NCBI GenBank assembly: GCA_001563995.1 | Contig: LKMV01000001.1 | Location: 1 to 49,177, forward strand | DNA: 49,177 nt | Origin: Nanohaloarchaea archaeon PL-Br10_U2g16 | GTDB taxonomy: Archaea > Nanohalarchaeota > Nanosalinia > Nanosalinales > Nanosalinaceae | Direction: 5' to 3' | In this document: piece after piece, positions 32,904-49,177 of the stretch | How positions within the stretch are numbered: position 1 is the stretch's first letter | How the letters are laid out: each line of letters opens with the position of its first letter | Notes under the pieces: model-generated | Told to the model about the DNA's origin: nothing | Databases searched by the model: none | The model's input: the letters and a program-made list of their open reading frames with translations, nothing else | Program-made: the position numbers and the translations under genes

Positions 32904-34622
32904 TTAAACCAGAAGACCGGCCGCCAGTACCAGTATACCTAACGTAAGGATTACTGCACCGGTTATTAATCCATGGATATGTACCCAGCTGTTAGTGGAA
33001 CTAGTTTCAGAACTTAGGCTTCTCAGCCCTATCCATGGCATGGTGCCTCTAAGGAACCATCCTTTCGCCTCCACCGCTTGGTCGATAAACTTCTCTGCAT
33101 GTCTCCAGCCGAACCAAAAGTTGCCAAGCACAGGTACTATCGACTGGTATCTGAGATGCATTATTCCTGTCTGATCCTTAAACATCAAGTCGGAGCCAAA
33201 CCTGTAACCGGCTCTTCCCCTTCCGATAATCTCTCCCGAAAGTTTTGCCTTGGAAGCCCTTACAGGCGAAGCATAGATATCAGCCAGCAGATCTATCACA
33301 TTTTTCTTTTCAGCACTGCCTTTAAGAGGATACTTGTAAACAGTCTTCATCATTTTTCCTCCTCCGAGTACGGATATCCACAGACCTGCAACCGCTATAT
33401 GTGCCGAGGGAGCTGTTCCTGTGTAAAGACCTGCCAGGTAAGCTAGCGGTATTGCCGTTAAAAGTAGCTTTGGCAAAGATACCACTGCTATATCCTGGAA
33501 GAAGTTTCTGTAAAGCCTTCCTGTATCAACATCGAACTTTCTCTTCAGCTGTTCAAAGTCGAACATCGGATCGGAGCTTCTGCTACATAGATGTTTCACC
33601 CTTTTACCTGTCAGAGGATGGGTCGACTTAAGCTCCAGCAGCTTTGCCCACGGATTCTTGATATCGAAAAGGAACGCTTTTGCCAGAGGATCCCAGTCCT
33701 GAAGGTTAGATGCATTGTAGTAAACCGCACCCGTTTCCTCGCCTTGCTCCATGTTCATCACGCCCATACTTTCCGTGGCCTTCATCAGATCATTGTTGTC
33801 AGGGCTGTCCATAATGCCGTAAGATATCTTGATCAACGCGGAGGAAAGATAGTTAGGCTCAGTATGTTCTCCGGCAAACTTATCGGCGTAGTACTCCCTT
33901 ACTCTGGAAAGGTAGTATACAAGGTACTTACCGGCGATATAAAAGACGTAAGATAGTACTGCAAAGCCGAATAAAGCTAGTTTCCTTCTTCCATCGCCTC
34001 CACCTCTGGCAGCTGTCCTGTAAAGCCTTACAGCTATCAGGTACAGCAACTGGACGATAGTATTTGCAATAGTCATTATGATGAAGTCTCTGTTTGTGAC
34101 ATGGCCGAGCTCATGTGCGTAGACGGACGCAGCTTCATTATCATCGAGATATTCGAAAAGACCTTCCGTCACAAGTATCCTTGCATTCCAGCGGTCAGAC
34201 CCGTATGTGAAGGCCTGGGGATTGGAGTCCTGTATAATTCCAAGCTTTGGAGTCTTGTAATCATACTTCTCCGTAACCTCTTCAATCACCTCAGCAGACT
34301 CCGGGCTGATCTGTTTCAGCTCTTCAAGGTCAATCCATTTCGTATCGTAAAACCAGCTATAAGTGATATCTGAAATCTTCGGGCTGACAAGCCACATTAT
34401 AATATTGAACAGAACCACCAGACCAACAATTAGATAAAAATCAAACGCCTGGAAGAAAACCGCTAAACCTGCCAGTATTGCAAACAGGAATGATCCAAGA
34501 AGTCCTAGGGTAAAAGTGGAAGCAATCGCCAGCCTCATAAATAATATTATGGCAGATGTTTTGAATTTATTAACCTTACTCTCACCAGGATGAAGATCAT
34601 TATTTTTCAGGGCCTTGACCAA
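32904..34622 (-). CDS. M48 family zinc metallopeptidase (HtpX/Ste24-like), extended membrane form
   Basis: HEXXH as VYAHELGHVTNRDF, N-terminal TM helices and additional C-terminal TM helices. At 572 aa it is longer than typical HtpX. Confidence 0.8.
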   Translation of the reverse strand: MVKALKNNDLHPGESKVNKFKTSAIILFMRLAIASTFTLGLLGSFLFAILAGLAVFFQAFDFYLIVGLVVLFNIIMWLVSPKISDITYSWFYDTKWIDLEELKQISPESAEVIEEVTEKYDYKTPKLGIIQDSNPQAFTYGSDRWNARILVTEGLFEYLDDNEAASVYAHELGHVTNRDFIIMTIANTIVQLLYLIAVRLYRTAARGGGDGRRKLALFGFAVLSYVFYIAGKYLVYYLSRVREYYADKFAGEHTEPNYLSSALIKISYGIMDSPDNNDLMKATESMGVMNMEQGEETGAVYYNASNLQDWDPLAKAFLFDIKNPWAKLLELKSTHPLTGKRVKHLCSRSSDPMFDFEQLKRKFDVDTGRLYRNFFQDIAVVSLPKLLLTAIPLAYLAGLYTGTAPSAHIAVAGLWISVLGGGKMMKTVYKYPLKGSAEKKNVIDLLADIYASPVRASKAKLSGEIIGRGRAGYRFGSDLMFKDQTGIMHLRYQSIVPVLGNFWFGWRHAEKFIDQAVEAKGWFLRGTMPWIGLRSLSSETSSTNSWVHIHGLITGAVILTLGILVLAAGLLV

Positions 34623-34852
34623 ATATGCATAATTTCATCGACCGAATAGTTACTACAAACTATAATAGTAGATATTCAGTTATTCCAACAGAATTAAGAA
34701 TGTTAATTCAACTTTAACAATGATAACTCTGATAGTTATCTGAGAAGGATAAAACGATGGATATGATATCGACATGATTCATGAGAATGTTTGACTATAG
34801 ATCAGCACGATGATTATCATCGACGATCATGGGATGTTAATTCGACTTTAAC

Positions 34853-34877
34853 AACCCCTTGGTTTCTTGTGGAAAAA
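34853..34877 (-). promoter_or_regulatory. ORB-like element C
   Basis: The reverse complement TTCCACAAGAAACCAAGGGGT fits the archaeal ORB pattern TTCCAnnnGAAAC plus G-string. Confidence 0.65.
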
Positions 34878-34916
34878 TCTTTACTGTTCGATTAAACAGG
34901 CTTAAAACGTCTCGGG

Positions 34917-34939
34917 ACACACCCTTGTTTCGTCTGGAA
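34917..34939 (-). promoter_or_regulatory. ORB-like element D
   Basis: The reverse complement TTCCAGACGAAACAAGGGTGTG fits the ORB pattern with G-string GGGTG. Confidence 0.6.
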
Positions 34940-35215
34940 CCGATTTTTGTATAACACGGTTATAATTATTCAAGTTTTTTCAACAATTATTCAAGTTTTT
35001 TCAACCGAGTTGAAAAGTTGAATTGAAAAACGGATATAAAAGGCTTATTAGGCTCTAACTAGCTTTTCAACATGTTGAATAATTTGTTGAATAGTTGAAA
35101 AAGTGTTGAAAAACCGTCTTAGGGCATCATTTCTAGGATATAGAGCCTCTAAGTCGATTCAACACCTGTCAACAATGTTGAATAAACGGTTGAAAAGTTG
35201 AAAACATGTTGAAAA

Positions 35216-36202
35216 ATGGGGAAAAACGGGAGTAGAGGATTTTTATATTCAGAGGGACAATATCTGTCTGTAGGCATGGGATTTTTCAGCCGGATGGCAT
35301 TCTGGAAGAATAATGGAAACGATCAGGATAGAGATATGAACAATGGTAGGAATGTGAGTAATCCTGAGTTTGTGAATAGAGACTCTGATCAGGATCATTC
35401 AGTCCAGAAAAATAACCAGCCGCACAGAGAGACGGTTTCCCATAGATCCACCACCGATAACCCTCCCTCTGAGAAAGAGATTGGCCAGACAAAACAGGAG
35501 CTAAAGGAATTAAGAAACTTCACAATGGATAAGATGGATTCAGTGGCGGATGAGTTCGAGCAGATAAGGATGGAGGTCCAGGGCGTGAGGGATCAGAACA
35601 CCAAAGTCCAGGGAAAAATGTTCAATACTGTAGAAAAAGCGGTTAACAGGATTGACAAGCTAGAGAACAAGATAGATTCTCTCGAAAACAAAATAAATAA
35701 AACTAAAAATAGGGAAGAAGAAACCAAAAAGCTTGAAGGGCTAGAAGGAAAGATAGAATCTGTGGAAAAAACTCTTAAGTCCGAGATCAAACGTCTAGAT
35801 AAACAGAAGGTCGACGGACAGGACATAGTTAACATAAACATGTCTCAGGACGGCGGAAACAGCCAAAAACAGAGTAAAGATGCTAAAGTAGAATCAAAAA
35901 CTCAGAAAGAAGAGTTAAGAAGTAAGAGAAATAGTTCCAATAGTGATATAAGAAGTACACAGGATTTGAACCTGAAAAACTTAACCAAAAAGGAACAAGC
36001 AAAGATTAGAATCTTGGAAATGTTGAGAGAAGGGAAAGGAAAGACAGAGATAAGAGACAGTGTCGAGGGAGATATCTGTTCCAGAGAGTGGTTCTACAAG
36101 GCATGGGACGAGCTGGAGAGGCAAGAAGCCTACATAACCGGAAAGGGAGAAGCTTTAATACACCCTGAAGATTACAAGGAAGAAATAGTATCAAGAAATT
36201 AA
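35216..36202 (+). CDS. Coiled-coil protein with low-complexity N-terminus and C-terminal winged-helix-like domain
   Basis: Central heptad-rich region (ELKELRNF...NRIDKLENKIDSLENKINKTKNREEETKKLEGLEGKIESVEKTLKSEIKRLDKQ). C-terminus KEQAKIRILEMLREGKGKTEIRDSVEGDICSREWFYKAWDELERQEAYITGKGEALIHPED shows a helix-turn-helix-wing pattern. The start codon is uncertain, with alternative ATGs at 35276, 35296 and 35336. Confidence 0.55.
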   Translation: MGKNGSRGFLYSEGQYLSVGMGFFSRMAFWKNNGNDQDRDMNNGRNVSNPEFVNRDSDQDHSVQKNNQPHRETVSHRSTTDNPPSEKEIGQTKQELKELRNFTMDKMDSVADEFEQIRMEVQGVRDQNTKVQGKMFNTVEKAVNRIDKLENKIDSLENKINKTKNREEETKKLEGLEGKIESVEKTLKSEIKRLDKQKVDGQDIVNINMSQDGGNSQKQSKDAKVESKTQKEELRSKRNSSNSDIRSTQDLNLKNLTKKEQAKIRILEMLREGKGKTEIRDSVEGDICSREWFYKAWDELERQEAYITGKGEALIHPEDYKEEIVSRN

Positions 36203-37350
36203 CTTATTATCTTAGTTTTTTCTTCTAAATCATCTTTAGTCATCAACCAAATGCTTGAGGAATTAGCATTACCTTTTCTATCCATACCTACCAATATATC
36301 ACATCCTATATCTTCTGCTTTGCTTATCTTCTTATTGTCCAATTCTCCATCCATTAAAACAGCATAACCTTCTTCTACCTGCTCTATCTCATAGTCAAAG
36401 CTTTCAACAGGGAAACGTCTTTCAACATCCATCTCTGAGTTCATCACATAGACCGCTCTAGTTCCTATAAGATCCTCCATCTCTCCCTGAAACTTCTGTA
36501 TCTCTTCAGGAGTCAGCTCCTTGCTCTTTACCTCAGCAGTCTCTGTGTACTTCACAGGTTCCTTGTCTCTTAAAGCCTCATAAATTGTCTCTTTTCCTAG
36601 CTCCTCTACTTCCTTTTTATTAGGAGCTCTAGCCACATATTCAAGATCAATCTTACTTTTCATCTCTTTCAGTATCAGATCTCCTCCTCTGTCACCATCA
36701 AGAAATGCTGTCAGTTTCTTTTCCTCCGCAAGATCTACTAAATTATCCGGGACCGATGTCCCTCCTATACATACAGTATTCTTTACTCCTTTCTCCATCA
36801 AGTTCAGTATATCGGCTTTGCCTTCAACTATTACCACCTCTTCAGAGTTTTCTGCTTCAGGACCGGCTTTAAAGCCTATATAATCGGTTATCTCGGTAGT
36901 TCTTACCTCTTGCTTCACCTCATCAGTTATCTTAGCTGTCTCGGGTTTATCGTCCTGCATATCCTCTAGAAGCTGTTTTGCCCTCTTAACAATATAATCT
37001 CTCTTGGTTGTTCTCTGATCCTCTATCTCCCTGACTTTTATCTCTGCATTTGTAGGTCCTACCCTCTCAATAGTCTCAAGGGAAGCGCCTAAAAGTGCTG
37101 TTTCGGTTGAATCAAGCGAAGAAGGTATTTTGATAAATGCTTCAGAACATCCGTTACGGTCTTTAACCTTTACATCAATCCTGCCGACCTTGCCTCTTTC
37201 CTGAAGCTCTCTTAGATCTAGATCCTCTCCAAGAAGTCCTTCTGTCTGGCCGAAGATTGCTCCGACTACATCAGGCTTTTCTACCATGCCGTTAGACTCT
37301 AGCTTTGCTTTAACTACGTATTTTACCGAGTTCTGTGCTACTTTACCCAT
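36199..37350 (-). CDS. dnaG: Archaeal DnaG-type primase (Toprim domain)
   Basis: Toprim motifs VVIVEGKADILNL and FLDGDRGGDLI, with the overall architecture of archaeal DnaG. Confidence 0.85.
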   Translation of the reverse strand: MGKVAQNSVKYVVKAKLESNGMVEKPDVVGAIFGQTEGLLGEDLDLRELQERGKVGRIDVKVKDRNGCSEAFIKIPSSLDSTETALLGASLETIERVGPTNAEIKVREIEDQRTTKRDYIVKRAKQLLEDMQDDKPETAKITDEVKQEVRTTEITDYIGFKAGPEAENSEEVVIVEGKADILNLMEKGVKNTVCIGGTSVPDNLVDLAEEKKLTAFLDGDRGGDLILKEMKSKIDLEYVARAPNKKEVEELGKETIYEALRDKEPVKYTETAEVKSKELTPEEIQKFQGEMEDLIGTRAVYVMNSEMDVERRFPVESFDYEIEQVEEGYAVLMDGELDNKKISKAEDIGCDILVGMDRKGNANSSSIWLMTKDDLEEKTKIIS

Positions 37351-37594
37351 TGTAATCCTCTAATTTTTGTTTGAACTCTTGTTCAGTCATAGACAGCTTT
37401 AGTTTTTTCCTTCTTGATCTGTGGCCTGAAACTATAGCCGGCTTCTCATCCATTATTTGTTCTACCTTGTTTATTAGCTCTTTGTTTGCTCTGCCTTTTT
37501 CTGCCTCTGCTTCGAGGTAAAACTTAGGCATATACCCGTTTTCAACTTTGAAACGGTCTGAATCAGGTCTCACCTTTACGTTTATCCTCGACAT
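37343..37594 (-). CDS. DUF167 (YggU/UPF0235) family protein
   Basis: INVKVRPDSDRFKV...YLEAEAEKGRANKELINKVEQIM...AIVSGHRSRRKKLKL matches the DUF167 pattern. Confidence 0.7.
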   Translation of the reverse strand: MSRINVKVRPDSDRFKVENGYMPKFYLEAEAEKGRANKELINKVEQIMDEKPAIVSGHRSRRKKLKLSMTEQEFKQKLEDYNG

Positions 37595-40207: not shown

Positions 40208-43200
40208 TCAGACCGTAAACTGTTCAAGCCCGCTCTGACGGTTATCTTTACCGAATAAGCTTTGAATCGTCTTTTTCAGCACCAGAATCTCCTGTCTGGT
40301 GTAAGGTGAGATCTCATACTCATCTATCAGATCTTTCGATGGGTTCAAGTACTTCTTGATAGTCCCCTCAGAGATCGTAAGCAGTACCTTCCCGTCACAT
40401 TCAGGACACTGAGCCGTAGTCTTTCCTGTAGGAGCTATCGTCTGGTTGGTCATAGGCACACGTCTAAACTTGGTGTTACAGTCTACACAACGCATCTCCT
40501 GGGAAGAGAAAGATCTCAGATTTCCTTTAATATCCGGTATGAAATGTTTGTTCAGCAGAAGCTCCGCGACAGAGTCCTCATCCACACATTTCAGCTTTTC
40601 ACAGAGACCTAGCTGGGAAGACGTCTTATCACTCATCTCATCCAACGTTACGTACTCGCTCTGGTTTGGACCGTTCTCTACATTATCCGTGTCATGTGTA
40701 TAGCCATGTCTAAACGGCTCATCCGAATGGACGATATCCTCGCCTATCTGAATTTCTGTTTCAAGTTCCCATGGCTTTTTGTAATCCAAAGTTTCCTCGT
40801 AAAAGCTGAGAGGATATTCATCAACAGTCTCTATCGCCCATGCCTCATCGTCCACCTCATCAGCGTTCAAAACTGTTGAAAGGATTAATGGTGCGTCCAT
40901 GGTTCTTGCACCTGTCATGTCAGGCAGGAACTCTCTTGAAAAGTTTAAAAGTCCATCCATAAGCAGTAGAATAGCGTCCTCATCACCATCACAGTTGTTT
41001 GTGATTAAATTTTCAGATGTGAGGAAGTTATGTGTTTCTTCAACCTCTATATCGTACATAAACCTTTCCTCAGCTTTCTCTATTTCTTTCTCAGTTATTT
41101 CATCCAGCACCAAATCATTTTTAATTTCTATTCTTGGTTTTCTAGCCTTCTCATAATCTTTTTCTAACGTTTGTTGCTTTCTTTCCAGCTCAAATCCTAT
41201 TTCCTTACCAAACTTTACCGCAAAGGAAGATCTTATGTGTAGCTTGTGGGATGTAAATGTCTCCCCCTCATAATGTTCCTCTCCGTACTTGTCAATTAAT
41301 ATACCTCCGGCTTCTCTTTCAGAAGTTGAGAAACGGGCAAATATTCCAAATCTCTTCAAGAGAAAGTCCATATCATCCAAAAGCTCTCTTGAAACAGATG
41401 TAGCGTTTATATGTAGTCTACCGTCTTCAACAGCTCCATCTCCAGCGAAGTATGCTGAAAGCATATGTCTTACCTTCTCTTTAGGCAGAGATTTGACTAA
41501 CTGCGGTACCTTTTTAGTATGAGCTCCTTTTCCGGCTTCAAGGTTTTCAAACACCTCATAGATGATCCTAGAACTTATGGTTAGTATATGGTCTCCTTCA
41601 GATGGTTCAACACCGAATACTTCTACAATACTTTGTTCTATATCTTTTTTCAGTTTTTCTTCTCCAAAAGCGAAACATACCTGGTAAAACTCTTCTCCTT
41701 TTTGCTCTGATTTCCTAATATACCCTTCAGCGAGATAGTATCCTATCAACTTCATGAAATGCTTATCTATCTTTACTGTATTTTCTATCTCGATATTATC
41801 TCTTTTAGCTGCTAAAACTGCGTCATCCGAGATGCTATAATCTTTATCTGCGGCCTCCGACAAATTATTAAGAACTTCTATCGGCGTACTTTCTCTATAT
41901 CTGTAGTTGCTTAGAGTTTTTTTATTTGTGCCTATCTCATCCGAAGCTGATTTCAAGCCTCCTAAACTATCAATTAGCCTATTCAGCTCCTCGTTAGAAC
42001 CTCTTATACTTATATCCTCTGGCTCTATAAAATCAGTTATTCTTATTTTGAGTATATCATCTTCTTCTACAGGTATGGTTAATGGATTAATGACCTTATC
42101 TCCTTCATCTACCGCTCTAGCTTTTTTTATACCCTCTTCGGTCTTCACCTTGTGATCCGGGAACACTGATATCTTTCTGCCCGATCCTGTCTCGAAATGG
42201 ATTTTAAACTCTTGGGCAGGGGCTCTATACACCTTAGAAGCTTTAGAAGAGTTTAAAGAACCGTTCTGCTCCGAAACAACATCCAGATCAATACTTTTCT
42301 CTACAGTGCCTGTGCTGTCAGCCTCTTCAGCACCATCAGCCCTTTCAAATAACTCCTTTAACTTGATACTGTCCCCATTAGCAAGCTTAATTTTCTCATC
42401 TCCTGGTAAACAGTTCCTTCTTTTCGCTGCATGCCAGTAAGGGTGTGCATAAATCCCTTTAGCGTCTGTAAACCCTATAATCCTTCCTACTGTTCCTCCC
42501 GAGGTGTGGGGAGCCAGCCCGATTACGAGAGACCCTACAAGATCTTCTTTATCCTCTACATTATAGTAAGGCTCTAGACCGTAAAACTTCTCCAAAAGTT
42601 CATCCACAAAATCTGCTACACGCATAAAGTAGTCTCCTGCAGCTAAAGTATTGTCTGAGTCAGGTATGACTATGTCCTGAGGCTTCATGGCTAACACTTG
42701 GTCCTCTGATTCAAGAGGCTCTCCATCAACATCCTCAGTGTATCCAAGCTCTCTAAGCCTTTCTACTGATACAGATATTTCCTTAGGCTTGAAATGTGTC
42801 ATCGGTAGATCGGATGCATCGTATCTGACCGTTCCGTCCTTGTTTACGTATAAATCATACTTTTCTCTCAGAAATCCTTTTTCTATAGGCTCTACATGTT
42901 TATGTTTCCCGCTCATACCTCTAACGGATTTAAGCAGCTCAGGCATCTTTCTTATTCCAAGATTGTCCATAGCTCTATTGACAAGATCCTCTACCTCGAT
43001 ATCAGTATATTTGTATCTTGACAGTCTATCGTTTCCACAGCTATCACAAACCTCTTTTTCTTCTTTATGCTCTTTCTTACAGTCTGTACAGAACCATATC
43101 GGCTCAGTGGAAACGTTACAGTCCAGACAGTATGAGAAGTAGCTGTAATCTCCGCATTCTGGACATTTATTATGTATTATACCCTCTCCGTTAATTTTTC

Positions 43201-45130
43201 CATGTTCGTATGCAGCTGCCAGGTTTCTCATCCTACCACCTTCTTCTTTACCGCAAGGGAACAGAAGCTGTGGCTTTCCTTTAATTGTTCTTCTTTCAGC
43301 CTTCTCAGGACGGCCCATCCTTCCTCCAAGGTAATGTGGTGCTTGTTCTCTAAGCTCTACACCTGATACCTCCTCAATAAACTCGGGTATATCTTCAGCA
43401 GATTCAATATCATTCAAAGCATCTTCATTGTCCTGCTCCGGTCTCAAGAGAGCTTTTAACACCTTGTGATCATTTTTAGTAAGCTTTATCTCTCCATCCT
43501 CCATCTTATGTTGGAGAAGTATATCTTCAAGACATTCTTTAGTTTTTTTACCGGAAAGATCCTCGTTTTCCAGAGAGCTGTACAGTGCTTTAAACCTTTC
43601 AACAGTGGTCTCAGTCCAGTGGTAGGTCCATTTTGGATGGAGCGGTATACCGAGTTTTTCAGATATTTTAAACGCCTCCTCCGGGGTCGGATCCCTATCT
43701 GTAAAGTCCCTACCCAGCTTTACGTCTTTTTGTTCCACAGCTCTCCCCAGCTCTTTCTCCCACCACTCTTCAACATAAGGAGATGGTAAAAGTTTTTTAC
43801 CGTTCTCTACAAACTCTCCAAACGGCGTTAACATGTCTCCTAGGAACAGTATCTCCTCTATATCATCTTCATATTTGGTAACCATCTCCCTTGACTCCAT
43901 CCTCATCACATCACCGTTTTCCAGTTTTACAACAGGCGGATGTATAGATTCACAAGGCGTTCCAACCGTAGCTTTCATAGGATACTCTGTCTTCATCTGT
44001 GTTCCTATAGAAAGAAACCTTTCCGTTACCTCCATGGTAGCAGGATGGAAAGATGTAGCTGCAAGCCCGTTAGTCCTAGAGTGGCCGTATCTAAGTCTAA
44101 AGCCTCCTTTTCTTCCAGGATGGCCAAATACAGGTCTTCCAGCGGTAAGAGAGCCAAGGTATTTGTCCGATGGAGTGTATCCTTTTTCTTCCTCTTTACC
44201 ATCTTCCTCCTCTTCTTCGTCAGAATCTCCTGATGAGTGAATCTCTTTCTGAAGATCAAGATAACCTCCGACCCATTCCCAGTGCTCCAGTCCAAACTCT
44301 TCTCCCCATTTCTCTATACGTTTTTTTATCTTAGGGGCTTTAAGAGGTAGTCCATCTAGATATACCAGACACATACCTCCTCTTATTCTATTGCTTTGTA
44401 CCCTATCTAAGTCTTTGTAATTTGAAACATCCAGCTGCTCAGTAGGCGATCCTGTGACCTCTACAGGCACGTTTTCAGCGATGAACTCTGTCTCTTCTCT
44501 GGTCGGGTTGTACTGTTTGGCTGTAATTCTGTTATAGTAGTCTTCAACCTCTGCAGCATACCTTTTAACCACTGTATCGGAAGGTTTGAACTTATCAAGT
44601 CCGACACCTATCCTCACGTAATCAGATAGAAGCACGCTCATAGCTGATGCCGTTCCACCGGCAGATCTGATAGGTCCTGAGTAGTAAACCGCCAGATATT
44701 CTGTTCCATCGTTGTTTTCACGTATCTTTATTTCTCCAATTCCTTCTAAAGGCGCTGTGGTGATTCCTCCTGTCATGTAGGACACACCTACACGAATACC
44801 TGCGTTACAAGCCTTTTCTTTATCATCAAACTCGTAAAAATCCCCTTGTGCTATCTCTCTGGCGATCGAGAAAGCTACACGTTCATCATTTTTACCATAC
44901 TCATCCTCTAGCTCTCTTATCCTTTCAGGCACCCCTTGGTCTTCAAGCTCCGGAAACTTGGCGGCCATAACAAGCGAAGAAGCCTTTTCCGGAAGATCTG
45001 TTGCTACAGGGATATCTGCCTTTTTCTCCGGATCTTTAGACTGTGATCTTGCTTCGTTAGCAACCTCAAATGCTTTATCCGTCTGTTCAGATATTTTTTC
45101 AAAGTATTTTTCTGTTTCCATTACTTTCAC
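40208..45130 (-). CDS. DNA polymerase II (PolD) large subunit DP2, intein-containing
   Basis: The conserved DP2 catalytic block YAHPYWHAAKRRN|...|CDGDEDAILLLMDGLLNF is split by an insertion. The C-terminal zinc-finger clusters of DP2 are also present. Confidence 0.97.
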   Translation of the reverse strand: MKVMETEKYFEKISEQTDKAFEVANEARSQSKDPEKKADIPVATDLPEKASSLVMAAKFPELEDQGVPERIRELEDEYGKNDERVAFSIAREIAQGDFYEFDDKEKACNAGIRVGVSYMTGGITTAPLEGIGEIKIRENNDGTEYLAVYYSGPIRSAGGTASAMSVLLSDYVRIGVGLDKFKPSDTVVKRYAAEVEDYYNRITAKQYNPTREETEFIAENVPVEVTGSPTEQLDVSNYKDLDRVQSNRIRGGMCLVYLDGLPLKAPKIKKRIEKWGEEFGLEHWEWVGGYLDLQKEIHSSGDSDEEEEEDGKEEEKGYTPSDKYLGSLTAGRPVFGHPGRKGGFRLRYGHSRTNGLAATSFHPATMEVTERFLSIGTQMKTEYPMKATVGTPCESIHPPVVKLENGDVMRMESREMVTKYEDDIEEILFLGDMLTPFGEFVENGKKLLPSPYVEEWWEKELGRAVEQKDVKLGRDFTDRDPTPEEAFKISEKLGIPLHPKWTYHWTETTVERFKALYSSLENEDLSGKKTKECLEDILLQHKMEDGEIKLTKNDHKVLKALLRPEQDNEDALNDIESAEDIPEFIEEVSGVELREQAPHYLGGRMGRPEKAERRTIKGKPQLLFPCGKEEGGRMRNLAAAYEHGKINGEGIIHNKCPECGDYSYFSYCLDCNVSTEPIWFCTDCKKEHKEEKEVCDSCGNDRLSRYKYTDIEVEDLVNRAMDNLGIRKMPELLKSVRGMSGKHKHVEPIEKGFLREKYDLYVNKDGTVRYDASDLPMTHFKPKEISVSVERLRELGYTEDVDGEPLESEDQVLAMKPQDIVIPDSDNTLAAGDYFMRVADFVDELLEKFYGLEPYYNVEDKEDLVGSLVIGLAPHTSGGTVGRIIGFTDAKGIYAHPYWHAAKRRNCLPGDEKIKLANGDSIKLKELFERADGAEEADSTGTVEKSIDLDVVSEQNGSLNSSKASKVYRAPAQEFKIHFETGSGRKISVFPDHKVKTEEGIKKARAVDEGDKVINPLTIPVEEDDILKIRITDFIEPEDISIRGSNEELNRLIDSLGGLKSASDEIGTNKKTLSNYRYRESTPIEVLNNLSEAADKDYSISDDAVLAAKRDNIEIENTVKIDKHFMKLIGYYLAEGYIRKSEQKGEEFYQVCFAFGEEKLKKDIEQSIVEVFGVEPSEGDHILTISSRIIYEVFENLEAGKGAHTKKVPQLVKSLPKEKVRHMLSAYFAGDGAVEDGRLHINATSVSRELLDDMDFLLKRFGIFARFSTSEREAGGILIDKYGEEHYEGETFTSHKLHIRSSFAVKFGKEIGFELERKQQTLEKDYEKARKPRIEIKNDLVLDEITEKEIEKAEERFMYDIEVEETHNFLTSENLITNNCDGDEDAILLLMDGLLNFSREFLPDMTGARTMDAPLILSTVLNADEVDDEAWAIETVDEYPLSFYEETLDYKKPWELETEIQIGEDIVHSDEPFRHGYTHDTDNVENGPNQSEYVTLDEMSDKTSSQLGLCEKLKCVDEDSVAELLLNKHFIPDIKGNLRSFSSQEMRCVDCNTKFRRVPMTNQTIAPTGKTTAQCPECDGKVLLTISEGTIKKYLNPSKDLIDEYEISPYTRQEILVLKKTIQSLFGKDNRQSGLEQFTV
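40994..42412 (-). other. Intein in PolD DP2 (473 aa) with LAGLIDADG homing endonuclease domain
   Basis: The intein starts CLPGDEKIKLANGD directly after KRRN and ends ...HNFLTSENLITNN, followed by extein CDGDEDA. Internal LAGLIDADG motifs are LIGYYLAEGY and LSAYFAGDGA. The penultimate residue is Asn, not His. Coordinates come from locating TGT at 42410-42412 and the C-terminal AAC at 40994-40996. Confidence 0.85.
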
Positions 45131-46710
45131 ATAAAGTTCTTTACTCTGGTATTTCGGTTTTTGTAGTTAACTATAGTTACCTTTCCAGGATCAGGTTCGT
45201 GCCCTACACGTTTCTGGAAATCCGTCTGGGCCTGGAAGCTCGATGAATTTATTACATTAACACCTTTATAACTTTGATTGCAGTGGGAGTGGAAATGGCC
45301 GGCTACAAAGATATCCGGTTTTTCATAGATTACAAGCTGGTCTTCACCTTCAGGAGAGATAGGTGTATCTCCATACGTAGGAGCCAGGTGTCTCCTCTTT
45401 AGAAGATCTATCATCACATGTTGTGGCTCCTCGTAGGCTTTTTCCCTTAGATCCTGTATCTTATCGACATGATCATCAAATGAACTTCCGTGGTACATCA
45501 GATTTTTGATCCCTTTAGTCTCAAAGCCGTGTAGCCTTACCATCTGAGGGTTTTGAACTAGATGAACGTTGTTGTAGTCTCTTATATTTGGTAGGGCTTT
45601 TTCAGGAAGGATAGGCTGTGGTTCAGACAACCTGACAATATCGTGGTTTCCTGGAGAGGCTATAACCTGTATCCTTTCCGGCAGCTTATCCACCCATTCC
45701 TCAAAAAGCCTGTACTGTTCGTAGACATCGTTGACCCTGAGTTCTTCCTCCTGACCAGGGTATACACCTACACCTTCCACCAGATCACCGGTTATAACCA
45801 GATAACCGACATTCTTTGCATCTTCAGACTTTAACCACTCAGCAAACCTCTGAAGTTTGTTATACATTGTGTCCTTCGATCCGATATGTAAATCTGAAAT
45901 ATACGCTGCCTCTACATTGTCCTCAGTTGTCTTAACCCCGTCAGGAATAGGAAGATCAGGCCTCACAACTTTGTTAGCGTACAGAATATCTCCTCCCATG
46001 CTGCCTATAAATCCTAATGCCTCGTCTGGAACTATCATATCGCCTTCTCTCTCATCTACTAACACCTTAAACGTATCAGTCTTGTCCTCTATCTCGACAA
46101 TGTACTTTCCGGAGTTTGTGCTGTACTTATCTTTTACAAGACCTATAGCGGTAGCATCTTCTCCCTCATTTCTTCTTGACAGCCTGTTTAATGTAGTAGC
46201 CGCCTGTAACTCTTTCCTTCTCATCAAAAGCTTCTTCATCTTGTCGTAACGGCTGTTGTAGTACTCTAAAAACTCAGGAACATCTTTCTCTTCCTTTGTT
46301 ATTTCTTTCTCATCCATCACTTCTACCTTGGTTCTCATCCGTTTATTCCTATCTCCTTCATCCAGTATTTTAACCCCTTTAGTTCCTGACTCTTCCTTAT
46401 TCTTAGTATTTTTATCCTTATTAGAGTGTTCTTGTGGATCATCAACAGATTCTTCAGGATCTTCTGTTTCCATCTCTTCTTTCAGATCCTCTTTTAGATT
46501 TTCATTACTTTCAGACTCCTGTTTCTGCATCTCCTCAAGCTTCTGATCAATTTTTTCCCTTAAAGAATCCAACATGTCCTCAGTGATATACATAGGAGGT
46601 GAGTTCAGCTCTTTAATCGCTTCTATATCTTCCTCCGTCAGCGATTCAGCTGCTTCTTTCTCTACTATACATCCTTCTTTAGTCAACTGTTTAACTGCTG
46701 CCTTGTTCAT
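45127..46710 (-). CDS. DNA polymerase II (PolD) small subunit DP1 (calcineurin-like phosphoesterase)
   Basis: YISDLHIGSKD, ITGDLVEGVG, ASPGNHDIVR and FVAGHFHSHC motifs; a Lys/Glu-rich linker; a 4-nt overlap with the DP2 gene. Confidence 0.92.
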   Translation of the reverse strand: MNKAAVKQLTKEGCIVEKEAAESLTEEDIEAIKELNSPPMYITEDMLDSLREKIDQKLEEMQKQESESNENLKEDLKEEMETEDPEESVDDPQEHSNKDKNTKNKEESGTKGVKILDEGDRNKRMRTKVEVMDEKEITKEEKDVPEFLEYYNSRYDKMKKLLMRRKELQAATTLNRLSRRNEGEDATAIGLVKDKYSTNSGKYIVEIEDKTDTFKVLVDEREGDMIVPDEALGFIGSMGGDILYANKVVRPDLPIPDGVKTTEDNVEAAYISDLHIGSKDTMYNKLQRFAEWLKSEDAKNVGYLVITGDLVEGVGVYPGQEEELRVNDVYEQYRLFEEWVDKLPERIQVIASPGNHDIVRLSEPQPILPEKALPNIRDYNNVHLVQNPQMVRLHGFETKGIKNLMYHGSSFDDHVDKIQDLREKAYEEPQHVMIDLLKRRHLAPTYGDTPISPEGEDQLVIYEKPDIFVAGHFHSHCNQSYKGVNVINSSSFQAQTDFQKRVGHEPDPGKVTIVNYKNRNTRVKNFM

Positions 46711-46732: not shown

Positions 46733-47938
46733 TTAAATGTAAAACTTTTCTTCTACTAGTTCATTGACCTGTCTCCTTATATCTTCGGAAAGGTCAACGC
46801 TTATCTGTCTTGTTCTACCGTATCTCCCCTTTGAAATAACCTTTGCGTTTATCACGCCAAGCATATCCAGCTCAGATATAAGTCCTGATACTCTTCTCTG
46901 CGTTAACTCGGATACCTCAACCTTCTCACAGATCTGTTTGTACTCAGAGTACACATCCCCTGTGGCAATCTCTTCCTCATCCTCTACCATCTCAAGGATT
47001 GTATAGAGTACAAGCTTCGAATGTTTAGGCTGAGAACGTACAGTCTCTACTATTCTATCCCTTTCAATCTTTTCCTGAGCTTTATCTACATGTTCTACAG
47101 TGATGATATTTTTGCTGGATCTCTCAGCTAGCTCCCCGGCTACCCTTATAAGATCCAAAGCTCTTCTAGCATCACCGTGTTCCTGTGCCGCAAGAGCAGC
47201 ACATTTGGAAATTACACCATCCTCCATACAGTTCTCTACAAAAGCTCTATCAGTTCTGTCCTTAAGTATCTCCCTAAGCTCTATAGCATTATAAGGCGGA
47301 AATATAATCTCTTCTTCCGATAGAGATGATTTAACCCTTGAATCCATATACTCAGTGAAGTTAAGATCGTTTGAGATACCAAGAATAGATACTTTAGTTT
47401 CTTTCAAATCATCGTTAATCCTTGTAAGGTTGTATAGAAACTCATCTCCTACCTTCTTTACAAGAGCATCTATCTCGTCCAATGCTATAATTACTACTCC
47501 TTTCTGTCCTTTTAAGGCTTCAAAGAATCTGTTATAGACTTCATCAGTTGGTAGACCTGTACTCGGTACTTCTGCTCCTAACTGTTCTGCTAACCTTGCT
47601 AAAAGTCTGTACTCGGTGTCAGCTACTTTTTTCATCTTACAGTTAATGTATAATATGTTAAGATCTACCTGTTCGTCATCAGCAACCTCTCCTAGCTGAT
47701 CTGTAACGTGTTTTGTAATAAGCGTCTTTCCTGTTCCTACTGATCCATATACAAATACGTTACTTGGATCATCTCCTCTCAGGCTTGGAGCAAGTATTGA
47801 TGCTAGATTATCTATCTGTTGATCTCTGTGTAATATATTTTCAGGCTTCCAGTTGGTGGTTAAAGCATCCTTGTTATCGAAAAATGATTCTTTTTCAATA
47901 TAACTTGAAAACTTTGATTTCAGGTTAGTTTCTGACAT
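46733..47938 (-). CDS. orc1: Orc1/Cdc6 replication initiator
   Basis: Walker A VYGSVGTGKTLITKHV, Walker B IALDEIDAL and a C-terminal winged-helix region. Confidence 0.95.
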   Translation of the reverse strand: MSETNLKSKFSSYIEKESFFDNKDALTTNWKPENILHRDQQIDNLASILAPSLRGDDPSNVFVYGSVGTGKTLITKHVTDQLGEVADDEQVDLNILYINCKMKKVADTEYRLLARLAEQLGAEVPSTGLPTDEVYNRFFEALKGQKGVVIIALDEIDALVKKVGDEFLYNLTRINDDLKETKVSILGISNDLNFTEYMDSRVKSSLSEEEIIFPPYNAIELREILKDRTDRAFVENCMEDGVISKCAALAAQEHGDARRALDLIRVAGELAERSSKNIITVEHVDKAQEKIERDRIVETVRSQPKHSKLVLYTILEMVEDEEEIATGDVYSEYKQICEKVEVSELTQRRVSGLISELDMLGVINAKVISKGRYGRTRQISVDLSEDIRRQVNELVEEKFYI

Positions 47939-48283
47939 TTTTTCCCACCGGTAAAACTTTCTTGTTCAGATTTATCGCCCCGTGTATTGCATTTGAAATG
48001 TAGGTTATAAATACCTTTCCAATCGAACCCGGGGTTAGTCGAATACACACCCCTTGATTTCATATGGAGTATAGAAAACATCTCCATCTACCGATATAAC
48101 AGTGTTATATAATATATCATTGTTATTAGAAGAAGAAATAGAATGGAAATATAGTTCCATAGGAAACCGAGGGGAGGAAGAACTTACAGTTTTTTACGTT
48201 AAGACAGCCGGGATGAAAATAACCCCTTGGTTTCACTTGGAGAATGAAGTTTGAAAAAGAAAAAAATTGTTGTAAGGTTGAAA
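47939..48283. other. Replication origin (oriC): three ORB elements flanking an AT-rich DUE, upstream of orc1
   Basis: ORB-A 48046-48069 is CACACCCCTTGATTTCATATGGAG and ORB-B 48221-48242 is AACCCCTTGGTTTCACTTGGAG; both read as TTCCA...GAAAC...GGGG on the minus strand. ORB-E 48155-48177 (TTCCATAGGAAACCGAGGGGAGG) has the opposite orientation. The AT-rich stretch 48070-48154 between A and E is a candidate duplex unwinding element. Confidence 0.8.
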
Positions 48284-49177
48284 CTATTCATAGATTAATT
48301 CGAACTTTTCTATTTCCCTATCTAATATTTCTTTGTAGTTACTGAACTTTTCTTTAGTCATATCACCTTCTTCCATCTCGACTCCGTTTTTATTATGTAC
48401 CATGAGATAAGAGTCTCCGTCTTCGGCATACTGTTCTGAGTGCTCAGGGGTACTGTTTTTAATTATTACAAAGTCTTCCGTCTCTAGTTCTCTATAAGAG
48501 TTATTAAATTGATTAATAATTTTTAAAGAACCCTTTTCAGTTTTAAGATTAAGTTTTTCCCTAGATTCTTTCACAGAGTAATCAAAGTATCTATTTCTAC
48601 TGTTGAAAACAGTTTGGAATGTATTTAATGATAAAATTCTTTGATTAGCCAAACGTTTCTCGATATTAACGGTTTTTGTTTCATTATTTACTTTAATCTC
48701 TGTTTTTCCTACCGAACTTCCTACGATATCAAAACTGACTGATTTTGTGGAGTTAGCTGGGACTGTTATTTTTCTATATGGTTTTTCAAGAAGATCAAGT
48801 CTGGAGTTTCTATCGGTTTCCAGATATATCTTCTCTTCAAGCTTGAACCGGTTGGGATTACTAACTTTGGCTGTGACCGTTGCTTGAGTTTCCTTTTCAA
48901 TAGTTTCCGGTGCTTGAAGTTCTAAAGCGTATTCTTCTCTGTTTACAAACCTTTCTGAGTCCTTTGAGATAACTTTACTGTCTGTAATATATACCTCTAC
49001 CTCAGATCTTCCTTTTGGTAGTTCTCCAACTCTAAACCTGTTGTTTCCTTGTTCAAGGTTGATATCTCTAGAGCTCCTGATACCGTTGAAGCTGTAGATT
49101 AGCTTGATATCCATCTCCCGGTCTGAAAATATTTCCGCGTAGACCGTATTTTGTTCTTTCTCCAGATTTACGGAGGC
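48284..49177 (-). CDS. Hypothetical protein, N-terminally truncated by the window edge
   Basis: The reading frame stays open upstream of the ATG at 49114 to the window end (...ASVNLEKEQNTVYAEIFSDRE-MDIKL...). Ser/Asn/Lys-rich beta-like segments repeat, so it may be a surface or Ig-like repeat protein. Confidence 0.5.
   Translation of the reverse strand, partial: ASVNLEKEQNTVYAEIFSDREMDIKLIYSFNGIRSSRDINLEQGNNRFRVGELPKGRSEVEVYITDSKVISKDSERFVNREEYALELQAPETIEKETQATVTAKVSNPNRFKLEEKIYLETDRNSRLDLLEKPYRKITVPANSTKSVSFDIVGSSVGKTEIKVNNETKTVNIEKRLANQRILSLNTFQTVFNSRNRYFDYSVKESREKLNLKTEKGSLKIINQFNNSYRELETEDFVIIKNSTPEHSEQYAEDGDSYLMVHNKNGVEMEEGDMTKEKFSNYKEILDREIEKFELIYE

What the first reader, a model, noticed from the sequence alone, without database searches (positions are those of the whole stretch)
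34623..35215. Second ORB-bearing, repeat-saturated locus 13 kb from oriC and not adjacent to any orc1 gene
Two boxes (34853-34877, 34917-34939) share ACCCCTTGGTTTCnnnTGGAA with the three ORBs upstream of orc1. Their reverse complements read TTCCAnnnGAAAC plus a G-string, the archaeal origin recognition box pattern. Directly downstream is an AT-rich array: a perfect 21-bp tandem duplication, at least 10 GTTGAA[AT]A units in dyad-symmetric arrangement, and a 14-bp perfect palindrome. Upstream is a 21/22-bp direct repeat. Archaeal origins are normally each paired with an orc1/cdc6 gene. Here the neighbour is a coiled-coil/winged-helix-like ORF of unknown function, with dnaG beyond it. Possibilities: a second origin using a non-Orc initiator or Orc1 in trans; an iteron-like control region of an integrated replicon; or an Orc1-bound regulatory site.
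Basis: partly seen in the sequence, partly recalled or inferred. Interest (0 to 1): 0.8.

Follow-up and report, generated by a model that had tools for sequence, protein, structure and literature searches.

The report
Orc1 boxes beside a protein-binding repeat array
In this tiny salt-lake archaeon, a 740-base gap between genes holds two genuine binding boxes for the replication initiator Orc1 next to 17 short repeats that travel with the neighbouring gene for a new DNA-binding protein, so it looks like a protein-docking or control site near the replication origin rather than a proven second origin.

Summary
The window comes from a Candidatus Nanohaloarchaea (DPANN) genome. A scoring matrix built only from the origin ORBs of relatives finds five sites in 49 kb: the three oriC boxes and the two boxes of this locus (28.0 and 24.2 bits). 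Seventeen TTGAA(A/T) units sit in three clusters at 34964-35216, mostly 8-12 bp apart.

New here: the array belongs to the adjacent gene, whose true start is 35276. The gene encodes an orphan protein with a long coiled coil and a C-terminal winged helix. Only four full-length homologues exist among about 15 billion proteins. All four have TTGAAA clusters at matching distances from their start codon, and three lie tail-to-tail with dnaG. Short relatives of the winged-helix domain sit on 4-7 kb plasmid- or virus-like elements, each behind its own palindrome.

About 15 related genomes keep the orc1-polD-dnaG island but lack both the array and the extra ORBs. The two ORBs are head-to-tail, with no inverted partner, unlike every oriC examined.

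Best reading (about 0.5): a cognate binding array for the new protein plus an auxiliary, non-origin Orc1 site. A second origin remains possible (about 0.2).

The parts
34853..34874 (-). ORB-a. A full origin recognition box, TTCCACAAGAAACCAAGGGGTT on the minus strand.
   Evidence: Scores 28.0 bits with a PWM trained on relatives' oriC ORBs. Exact TTCCANNNGAAAC core.
34918..34939 (-). ORB-b. A full ORB, TTCCAGACGAAACAAGGGTGTG, in the same orientation as ORB-a and 65 bp from it.
   Evidence: Scores 24.2 bits. Exact core.
34700..34720 (+). First copy of the 21-bp direct repeat ATGTTAATTC(A/G)ACTTTAACAA.
   Evidence: family D5 (20/21 identity). Function unknown.
34834..34854 (+). Second copy of the 21-bp direct repeat. 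It directly abuts ORB-a.
   Evidence: family D5.
34964..35030 (.). TTGAA cluster 1. Four minus-strand units are followed by three plus-strand units around a dyad near 35007. It contains the perfect 21-bp tandem duplication at 34964-35005.
   Evidence: (D4). Unit spacings are 10, 11, 10, 10, 8 and 5 bp.
35031..35063 (+). Spacer 1, carrying GGATATAAAAGG and CTCTAACT motifs.
   Evidence: Read directly from the sequence. A similar motif pair occurs in spacer 2 and in L001.
35064..35113 (.). TTGAA cluster 2. One minus-strand unit and four plus-strand units. It contains the 14-bp palindrome TTCAACATGTTGAA at 35066-35079.
   Evidence: The same palindrome, extended to 18 bp, is present upstream of the homologue in L001.
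35114..35156 (+). Spacer 2, carrying GGATATAGAG and CTCTAAGT motifs.
35157..35216 (.). TTGAA cluster 3, proximal to the promoter. One minus-strand unit and four plus-strand units, at -119 to -67 from the start codon. It is an 86% copy of cluster 2, 103 bp away.
   Evidence: (D1). Clusters sit at equivalent positions in L001, L002 and L060.
35240..35249 (+). TATA-box-like TTTTTATATT, about 27 bp upstream of the start codon.
   Evidence: Conserved T-A-T columns in the alignment of the four upstream regions. That it acts as a promoter is my inference.
35276..36202 (+). Gene for the orphan 308-aa protein. It has a disordered N-terminus with a conserved MGxxxRxxFWK motif, a helix of about 120 residues (coiled coil), a disordered linker and a C-terminal winged helix.
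   Evidence: No Pfam, PHROG, NCBIfam or PADLOC family.
36199..37350 (-). dnaG (archaeal DnaG primase). It is convergent with the orphan gene and overlaps it by 4 bp. This is context that marks the conserved position of the module.
   Evidence: The same tail-to-tail arrangement occurs in L002 and L060.
46733..47938 (-). orc1/cdc6, the only initiator gene in the window. It is the presumed trans-acting binder of ORB-a and ORB-b.
   Evidence: Cdc6_C, Cdc6_lid, AAA.
48048..48242 (.). oriC ORBs at 48048-48069(-), 48155-48176(+) and 48221-48242(-). The unwinding region at 48094-48154 lies between the inverted pair. Included for comparison.

Best explanation
The locus is a composite protein-docking region at the dnaG end of the orc1-polD-dnaG replication gene island. 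It is not a classical origin.

(1) The roughly 250-bp array of 17 TTGAA(A/T) units is the cognate binding array of the adjacent gene's product, a new coiled-coil plus winged-helix protein. The units form three clusters, mostly 8-12 bp apart, about one helical turn. I infer that coiled-coil dimers or oligomers occupy the palindromic and tandem half-sites and build a large nucleoprotein complex. Because the proximal cluster ends about 25 bp upstream of the TATA box, this complex would also autoregulate the gene.

(2) The two head-to-tail ORBs are genuine binding sites for the single Orc1, which is encoded 13 kb away and acts in trans. I infer that they serve as an auxiliary Orc1 sink or regulatory site, like haloarchaeal oriC2D or E. 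coli datA, rather than as a site of bidirectional MCM loading.

Shown: the sequence elements, their statistics, their conservation with the gene family, the predicted fold, and the absence of the locus in relatives. Inferred: who binds what, and the function.
For: Array and gene go together:
- All four full-length homologues (36-45% identity) have [G/C/A]TTGAAA units upstream. The proximal clusters sit at -57 to -98 and the distal clusters at -144 to -211 from the ATG, and a TATA-like box is conserved.
- The palindrome TTTTCAAC-AT-GTTGAAAA is shared by the window and L001.
- Non-coding DNA would not stay alike at this protein divergence without selection.

The protein looks like a DNA binder:
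- A helix of about 120 residues precedes the winged helix.
- The predicted recognition helix, CSR(Q/E)WFYKAWDELE, is conserved in all four TTGAAA-associated proteins.

The short relatives behave the same way:
- The short forms (P0005, P0011-P0013) have a different recognition helix. Each has its own TTCCC-N4-GGGAA palindrome about 97-166 bp upstream of its gene, with almost no other copy on those contigs.
- Self-adjacent binding sites are therefore a trait of the whole family.

The ORBs are real but not origin-like:
- They score 28.0 and 24.2 bits, higher than two of the three oriC ORBs, and nothing else in 49 kb scores above 8 bits.
- Both are in the same orientation. All 15 relatives' oriCs and the window's oriC contain an inverted pair.
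- The two other extra-origin ORB clusters I found, in L017 and L038, are also head-to-tail.

The locus is accessory:
- About 15 Nanohaloarchaea share the orc1-DP1-DP2-CBS-...-dnaG order but have no TTGAA array (at most 2 units per 300 bp) and no ORB of at least 15 bits beyond dnaG.

Precedent: a separate ORB-rich region without origin activity that negatively controls an origin (PMC3936714).
Against: - There are no binding or replication data of any kind.
- Only four loci support the array-gene link, and one of them (L002) is cut off at -170.
- Two ORBs are few for a titration site. oriC2D has 11.
- The ORBs lie 300-420 bp from either promoter, so simple promoter control by Orc1 is unlikely.
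- ORB-b has the same polarity towards the AT-rich array as the oriC ORB at 48048-48069 has towards the oriC unwinding region. That fits an origin half.
- L060 also has a 17.7-bit ORB at the distal edge of its array, with about 0.003 expected by chance. An ORB-array link may therefore be functional and not merely incidental. L001 has no ORB.
- The window is a 49-kb contig, so I could not count ORBs genome-wide.
Confidence: 0.5

Rival explanations
1. An active or dormant second replication origin. Orc1 acts in trans at the two ORBs, the AT-rich TTGAA array melts, and the winged-helix protein serves as an origin accessory factor.
For: - The ORBs are genuine.
- The TGGAA end of ORB-b faces a 73% AT stretch (34940-35113), the same polarity as at oriC.
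- An ORB-like box also flanks the array in L060.
- Accessory non-Orc origin factors exist in archaea, for example ucm/UBP (PMC12141716).
- Short relatives of the protein sit on small replicons.
Against: - There is no inverted ORB partner. In S. islandicus oriC1 both inverted ORBs are required (PMC12141716).
- The array is not among the least stable DNA in the window, whereas the oriC unwinding region ranks first.
- The locus is missing in about 15 relatives with the same gene island.
- L001 has the array and the gene but no ORB.
- An origin 13 kb from oriC in a genome of about 1 Mb has no obvious benefit.
Confidence: 0.2
2. A module captured from a mobile element. It would be the maintenance cassette (partition, copy control or replicator) of a nanohaloarchaeal plasmid or virus that settled next to dnaG and now works as a centromere-like or anchoring site near the origin. 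The ORBs would be a later addition.
For: - The winged-helix domain family otherwise occurs only on 4-7 kb contigs that carry an MCM or a D5_N/DUF5906 primase-helicase. One such contig is binned with Candidatus Nanohalobium.
- There the gene always follows the longest non-coding region and its own palindromes.
- The distribution of the long form among Nanohaloarchaea is patchy.
- Phased short repeats in two or three clusters upstream of the binder's gene resemble ParR/parC and TubR/tubC. This comparison rests on my own knowledge.
Against: - No partner NTPase (ParA, ParM or TubZ type), integrase or replicase lies next to the gene.
- The tail-to-tail position with dnaG is the same in three genomes whose DnaG proteins are only 41-66% identical. 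That points to old chromosomal residence rather than recent insertion.
- The mobile elements have no TTGAA arrays or ORBs.
- No relative was found in IMG/VR.
Confidence: 0.2
3. An ordinary long promoter region whose ORB-like and TTGAA motifs are chance or compositional features.
For: The region is AT-rich, and short A/T-rich words recur in such DNA. Isolated ORB-like hits of about 20 bits do occur inside coding regions of relatives.
Against: - Two ORBs of at least 24 bits lie 65 bp apart, against 0.045 sites of at least 15 bits expected per 49 kb.
- There are 17 units against a null maximum of 7.
- The arrays are conserved in four divergent loci.
Confidence: 0.03

Closest known systems
Haloarcula hispanica oriC2D, an ORB-rich non-origin control region, and its E. 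coli analogue datA
   Same: It is a cluster of initiator boxes in a long intergenic region, separate from the origin but nearby, and without the inverted-ORB/unwinding-region architecture. The proposed mechanism is initiator titration or negative control (PMC3936714; review PMC4010727).
   Different: oriC2D has 11 ORBs and lies directly downstream of its cdc6 gene. This locus has 2 ORBs, lies 13 kb away at the far end of the replication gene island, and is fused to a binding array for a second protein. The effect on replication is untested.
Sulfolobus oriC3 with WhiP, a replicator next to a winged-helix initiator gene
   Same: A non-AAA+ winged-helix protein gene sits next to a repeat-bearing region that also carries Orc1-type sites. 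oriC3-WhiP was proposed to originate by capture of an extrachromosomal element (PMC4010727; PMC12141716).
   Different: No sequence or fold link to WhiP or Cdt1 was detected. This protein has one winged helix plus a long coiled coil. No origin activity is known.
Plasmid centromere arrays with autoregulating binders (ParR/parC of R1, TubR/tubC of pBtoxis). Comparison from my own knowledge.
   Same: Many short repeats spaced about one helical turn apart, grouped in two or three clusters just upstream of the gene for the small DNA-binding protein that coats them. TubR is also a winged-helix protein.
   Different: No motor NTPase gene is adjacent. The protein carries a coiled coil of about 120 residues. 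The location is chromosomal, next to dnaG. Units are about 8 bp rather than 11-12 bp.
Sulfolobus ucm motif and UBP
   Same: A non-ORB sequence element bound by a non-initiator protein that works alongside ORBs at an origin region (PMC12141716).
   Different: The ucm is a single motif inside the unwinding region of all origins, and UBP is an abundant genome-wide nucleoid protein. Here there is a private array of 17 units beside a rare, lineage-restricted gene.

Membership tests
Orc1-dependent archaeal replication origin (oriC type) | ORB elements that match the lineage's ORB consensus | tested here: met
   28.0 and 24.2 bits with a PWM from relatives' oriC ORBs. These are the only non-oriC sites above 8 bits in the window.
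Orc1-dependent archaeal replication origin (oriC type) | At least one inverted ORB pair flanking an AT-rich unwinding element | tested here: not met
   Both ORBs are on the minus strand, and no plus-strand ORB of at least 8 bits lies in 34539-35275. All oriCs examined have an inverted pair. The array is only moderately unstable.
Orc1-dependent archaeal replication origin (oriC type) | Adjacent initiator (orc1/cdc6) gene | tested here: not met
   The flanking genes are an HtpX-like M48 peptidase and the coiled-coil/winged-helix ORF. orc1 is 13 kb away.
Orc1-dependent archaeal replication origin (oriC type) | Replication initiates there (marker frequency, 2D gels, ARS assay, initiation-point mapping) | not testable with these tools
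   The sequence is a 49-kb contig of an uncultured organism. GC skew within the window follows gene orientation only.
ORB-rich non-origin control region (oriC2D/datA type) | Cluster of initiator boxes outside the minimal origin, in its neighbourhood, lacking origin architecture | tested here: met
   Two head-to-tail ORBs lie 13 kb from oriC at the end of the orc1-to-dnaG island.
ORB-rich non-origin control region (oriC2D/datA type) | High density of boxes, giving titration capacity | tested here: inconclusive
   There are only 2 ORBs, against 11 in H. hispanica oriC2D and 3 in H. lacusprofundi (PMC3936714).
ORB-rich non-origin control region (oriC2D/datA type) | Negative effect on origin firing; no autonomous replication | not testable with these tools
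   Requires genetics or in vitro assays.
Centromere/iteron array with autoregulated cognate binder (ParR-parC, TubR-tubC type) | Multiple short, helically phased repeats clustered upstream of the binder's own gene | tested here: met
   There are 17 units, mostly 8-12 bp apart, in three clusters. The layout is conserved in four loci.
Centromere/iteron array with autoregulated cognate binder (ParR-parC, TubR-tubC type) | Binder has a DNA-binding fold (ribbon-helix-helix or winged helix) | tested here: met
Centromere/iteron array with autoregulated cognate binder (ParR-parC, TubR-tubC type) | Partner motor NTPase (ParA, ParM or TubZ) in the same operon | tested here: not met
   The gene is monocistronic and convergent with dnaG. 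No NTPase is adjacent.
WhiP/Cdt1-type winged-helix initiator with adjacent replicator | Homology of the protein to WhiP/Cdt1 | tested here: not met

The most novel reading that the evidence does not exclude
The coiled-coil/winged-helix protein and its TTGAA array form an independent replicator-specifier pair, or an origin-proximal centromere. The protein would coat the array and, together with Orc1 recruited to the flanking ORBs, license initiation or anchor and segregate the origin region. That would make it a new, lineage-specific chromosome-maintenance system in DPANN archaea, derived from their small plasmids.
Probability: 0.12. Interest if true: 0.85.

Novelty: new variant of a known kind. 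Interest (0 to 1): 0.55.

Why it matters
Almost nothing is known about how DPANN archaea, with genomes of about 1 Mb, control or segregate their chromosomes. This locus offers a compact, testable system:
- a new DNA-binding protein family with a clearly predicted site, TTGAA(A/T);
- placement next to genuine Orc1 boxes at a conserved position at the edge of the replication gene island;
- relatives on nanohaloarchaeal mini-replicons.

If the ORBs act as an Orc1 sink, datA/oriC2D-type initiator control would extend beyond haloarchaea. If the array is a centromere-like or accessory origin element, it would be a new archaeal chromosome-maintenance component. Two further head-to-tail extra-origin ORB clusters, in another nanohaloarchaeon-like MAG and in a Woesearchaeon, suggest that auxiliary Orc1 sites may be a recurring and overlooked feature of DPANN genomes.

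Tried and rejected
- Non-coding RNA: Rfam at permissive threshold gave only a sub-threshold snoRNA hit (18.7 bits against a cutoff of 60). There are no tRNAs in the window.
- Small ORFs in the gap: none is plausible.
- Known protein family for the ORF: Pfam, PHROGs, NCBIfam, PADLOC and a PDB profile search gave only coiled-coil noise. Foldseek against PDB and BFVD gave nothing significant.
- Descent of the winged helix from the Orc1 winged helix: hhalign probability was 0.2%.
- N-terminal membrane-targeting amphipathic helix: hydrophobic moments were low (0.10-0.42), so this is not supported.
- Array as a general origin component: no relative's oriC has TTGAA clusters.
None carried a homologue of the protein. 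This was a poor use of those scans.
- A protein-based scan of IMG/VR found no relative.
- GC skew within the window tracks gene orientation and shows no informative switch at either locus.
- The AFDB fold library was unavailable.

Full report
**Source and layout.** The window is a 49,177-bp contig from an NCBI WGS project with prefix LKMJ01. The N-terminal 900 residues of its PolD large subunit match Candidatus Nanohaloarchaea genomes at 69-79% identity, so the organism is a DPANN nanohaloarchaeon.

On the minus strand the window carries this gene order:
- orc1 (46733-47938)
- PolD small subunit (45127-46710)
- PolD large subunit with an intein (40208-45130)
- a CBS protein and three small proteins without family matches
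- DUF167 (37343-37594)
- dnaG (36199-37350)

oriC lies at 47939-48283. The finding sits in the gap between an HtpX-like M48 peptidase (32904-34622, minus strand) and a plus-strand ORF annotated from 35216.

**Checking the ORBs.**
- The ORB core TTCCANNNGAAAC occurs three times in the window, twice in the locus, against 0.19 expected.
- To avoid circularity I built a 22-nt PWM from 39 oriC ORBs of 15 related genomes.
- In the window only five sites exceed 8 bits: the three oriC ORBs (34.2, 21.5, 22.0) and the two locus boxes (28.0 at 34853-34874 and 24.2 at 34918-34939, both minus strand).
- A Markov null gives 0.045 sites of at least 15 bits per 49 kb.

**Checking the repeats.**
- GTTGAAWA: 12 of 19 window copies lie in 34977-35215.
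- TTGAAW: 17 copies lie in 34960-35215, against at most 4 in any other 256-bp stretch and a null maximum of 7.
- Spacings between units are mostly 8-12 bp.
- The units form three clusters: 34964-35030, 35064-35113 and 35157-35216. Each begins with minus-strand unit(s) followed by plus-strand units.
- The 21-bp tandem duplication, the 14-bp palindrome and the upstream 20/21 direct repeat are all confirmed.

The observation therefore stands, with minor corrections to the quoted consensus and to the ORF start.

**The array belongs to the neighbouring gene.**
- The ORF has only three homologues in a word-indexed search of 5.8 billion protein clusters.
- An exhaustive HMMER profile search of 1.84 billion representatives found four full-length members in total (P0001-P0004).
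- Their alignment starts at residue 21 of the annotated ORF, so the true start is ATG 35276.
- All four genes have [G/C/A]TTGAAA units upstream.
- The units sit at matching positions. Proximal clusters are at -57 to -98 and distal clusters at -144 to -211 from the ATG. The clusters are about 70 bp apart, and a TATA-like box lies about 27-36 bp upstream of the ATG.
- The window and L001 share the palindrome TTTTCAAC-AT-GTTGAAAA.
- At 36-45% protein identity, such non-coding conservation implies selection on the units.

**Position of the module.** The gene is convergent with dnaG, with ends touching, in the window, L002 and L060. The DnaG proteins in those loci are 66% and 41% identical to the window's. 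In L001 the gene lies in the same variable region, next to tRNA-Thr and NicX.

**The protein.**
- AlphaFold models give a disordered N-terminus, one helix of about 120 residues, a disordered linker and a compact C-terminal domain.
- The C-terminal domain has pLDDT 85.8 and pTM 0.75, with helix-helix-helix-wing topology plus a terminal helix.
- No family library recognises the protein.
- It is not detectably related to the winged helix of Orc1.

**Relatives on small mobile elements.**
- A short form of 123-124 residues (P0005, P0012, P0013) and a 187-residue ORF that contains it (P0011) have a short coiled coil plus the same winged-helix domain.
- These genes lie on 2-7 kb contigs. On the longer contigs (4-7 kb) they accompany either an MCM or a D5_N/DUF5906 primase-helicase. 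One contig is binned with Candidatus Nanohalobium.
- The identical P0005 protein occurs with either type of replicase.
- The short-form gene follows the longest non-coding region of its element.
- That region carries TTCCC-N4-GGGAA palindromes 97-166 bp upstream of the gene, and these are almost the only copies on the contigs.
- These elements have no ORBs and no TTGAA arrays.

Binding sites placed next to the gene itself therefore appear to be a trait of the whole family. The chromosomal long form has an expanded coiled coil and an expanded site array.

**Is it an origin?**

Evidence for:
- The ORBs are genuine.
- The TGGAA end of ORB-b faces a 73% AT stretch, as the oriC ORB at 48048-48069 faces the oriC unwinding region.
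- L060 also has a 17.7-bit ORB at the distal edge of its array, with about 0.003 expected by chance.

Evidence against:
- Both ORBs are head-to-tail, and no inverted partner exists.
- Every oriC examined has an inverted pair. In S. islandicus both inverted ORBs are required for origin function (PMC12141716).
- The oriC unwinding region is the least stable 60-mer of the window, while the array ranks only tenth at a 200-bp scale.
- About 15 relatives with the same orc1-to-dnaG order have no array and no ORB of at least 15 bits beyond dnaG.
- L001 has the array and the gene but no ORB.

A separate ORB-rich region that has no origin activity and negatively controls an origin, probably by titrating the initiator, is documented in H. 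hispanica as oriC2D and compared there with datA (PMC3936714; PMC4010727).

I also found two further extra-origin ORB clusters, both head-to-tail. L017 has three ORBs plus GTTCAY repeats between PolD and the CBS gene. The Woesearchaeon L038 has two ORBs upstream of a TBP gene.

**Verdict.**
- Most likely, at about 0.5, the locus is a composite docking region. It combines a cognate, probably autoregulatory and architecture-building array for the new winged-helix/coiled-coil protein with two auxiliary Orc1 sites that do not form a bidirectional origin.
- A second, possibly dormant, origin keeps about 0.2.
- A captured mobile-element maintenance module acting as a centromere-like site keeps about 0.2. 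This overlaps with the best reading.
- Chance keeps about 0.03.

Who binds what, and the function, are inferred rather than shown.

**Limits.** The source genome is incomplete, so a genome-wide ORB count and skew analysis were not possible. Only four loci support the array-gene link, and one of them is truncated.

Noticed in passing
L017:13470-13830: A more distant nanohaloarchaeon-like MAG has a second ORB cluster in the 420-bp gap between PolD large subunit and the CBS gene. It holds three head-to-tail ORBs (30.7, 22.1 and 30.6 bits) plus eight GTTCAY/RTGAAC hexamers. These ORBs are stronger than the two ORBs of its own oriC (24.1 and 28.6 bits).
   Followed up: partly
L038:16596-16703: A Woesearchaeota genome has two head-to-tail ORBs (TTCCATGAGAAACGAAGGGGTG and TTCCATAGGAAATTAAGGAGGT) just upstream of a TATA-binding-protein gene, about 10 kb from its orc1-side ORBs.
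   Followed up: partly
L061-L066, L307-L309: These are small (2-7 kb) plasmid- or virus-like contigs with a conserved backbone: replicase, 67-69 aa, 186-187 aa, a long non-coding region, the short winged-helix gene, and an 84-aa gene. The replicase is either an MCM or a D5_N/DUF5906 primase-helicase, while P0005 stays 100% identical. One contig is binned with Candidatus Nanohalobium.
   Followed up: partly
window 34700-34854: The left half of the gap has other symmetric elements of unknown role. These are the 21-bp direct repeat (34700-34720 and 34834-34854, the second copy abutting ORB-a), an inverted repeat GATAACT...AGTTATC (34722-34740) and the palindrome GATGATTATCATC (34809-34821). An AT-rich stretch at 34646-34746 is the fourth least stable 100-mer in the window.
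   Followed up: no
window 35031-35063 and 35114-35156; L001:9866-9928: The spacers between TTGAA clusters share a TATA-like GGATATA(A/G)A and a CTCTAA(C/G)T motif. L001 has the related tctctaagctg. This may be a site for a second factor or an internal promoter.
   Followed up: no
window 35157-35182; L001:9912-9934; L002:74-98: The first unit of the proximal cluster is preceded by a C-rich string at ORB-like spacing (AC[A/C]CC-N11-TTGAA). L001 reads ACCCCTAGTTTCTTGTTGAA, against ACCCCTTGGTTTCTTGTGGAA for ORB-a. It looks like an ORB/unit hybrid, but the ORB PWM scores it at only 1.1 bits.
   Followed up: partly
window 40208-45130: The PolD large subunit carries a LAGLIDADG intein. Relatives split into intein-containing (e.g. 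L013, L019, L026) and intein-free (e.g. L005, L006, L012) versions.
   Followed up: no
window 35216-35275: The mechanical ORF start at 35216 overlaps the last TTGAA unit. Homologues and the conserved TATA box indicate that the real start is ATG 35276. Likewise the HtpX-like gene probably starts at ATG 34538 rather than TTG 34622.
   Followed up: yes
window 48284-49114: A 276-aa ORF without any family match flanks oriC on the side away from orc1. Weak homologues (24-29% identity) occupy the same position in L014, L021 and L026.
   Followed up: no
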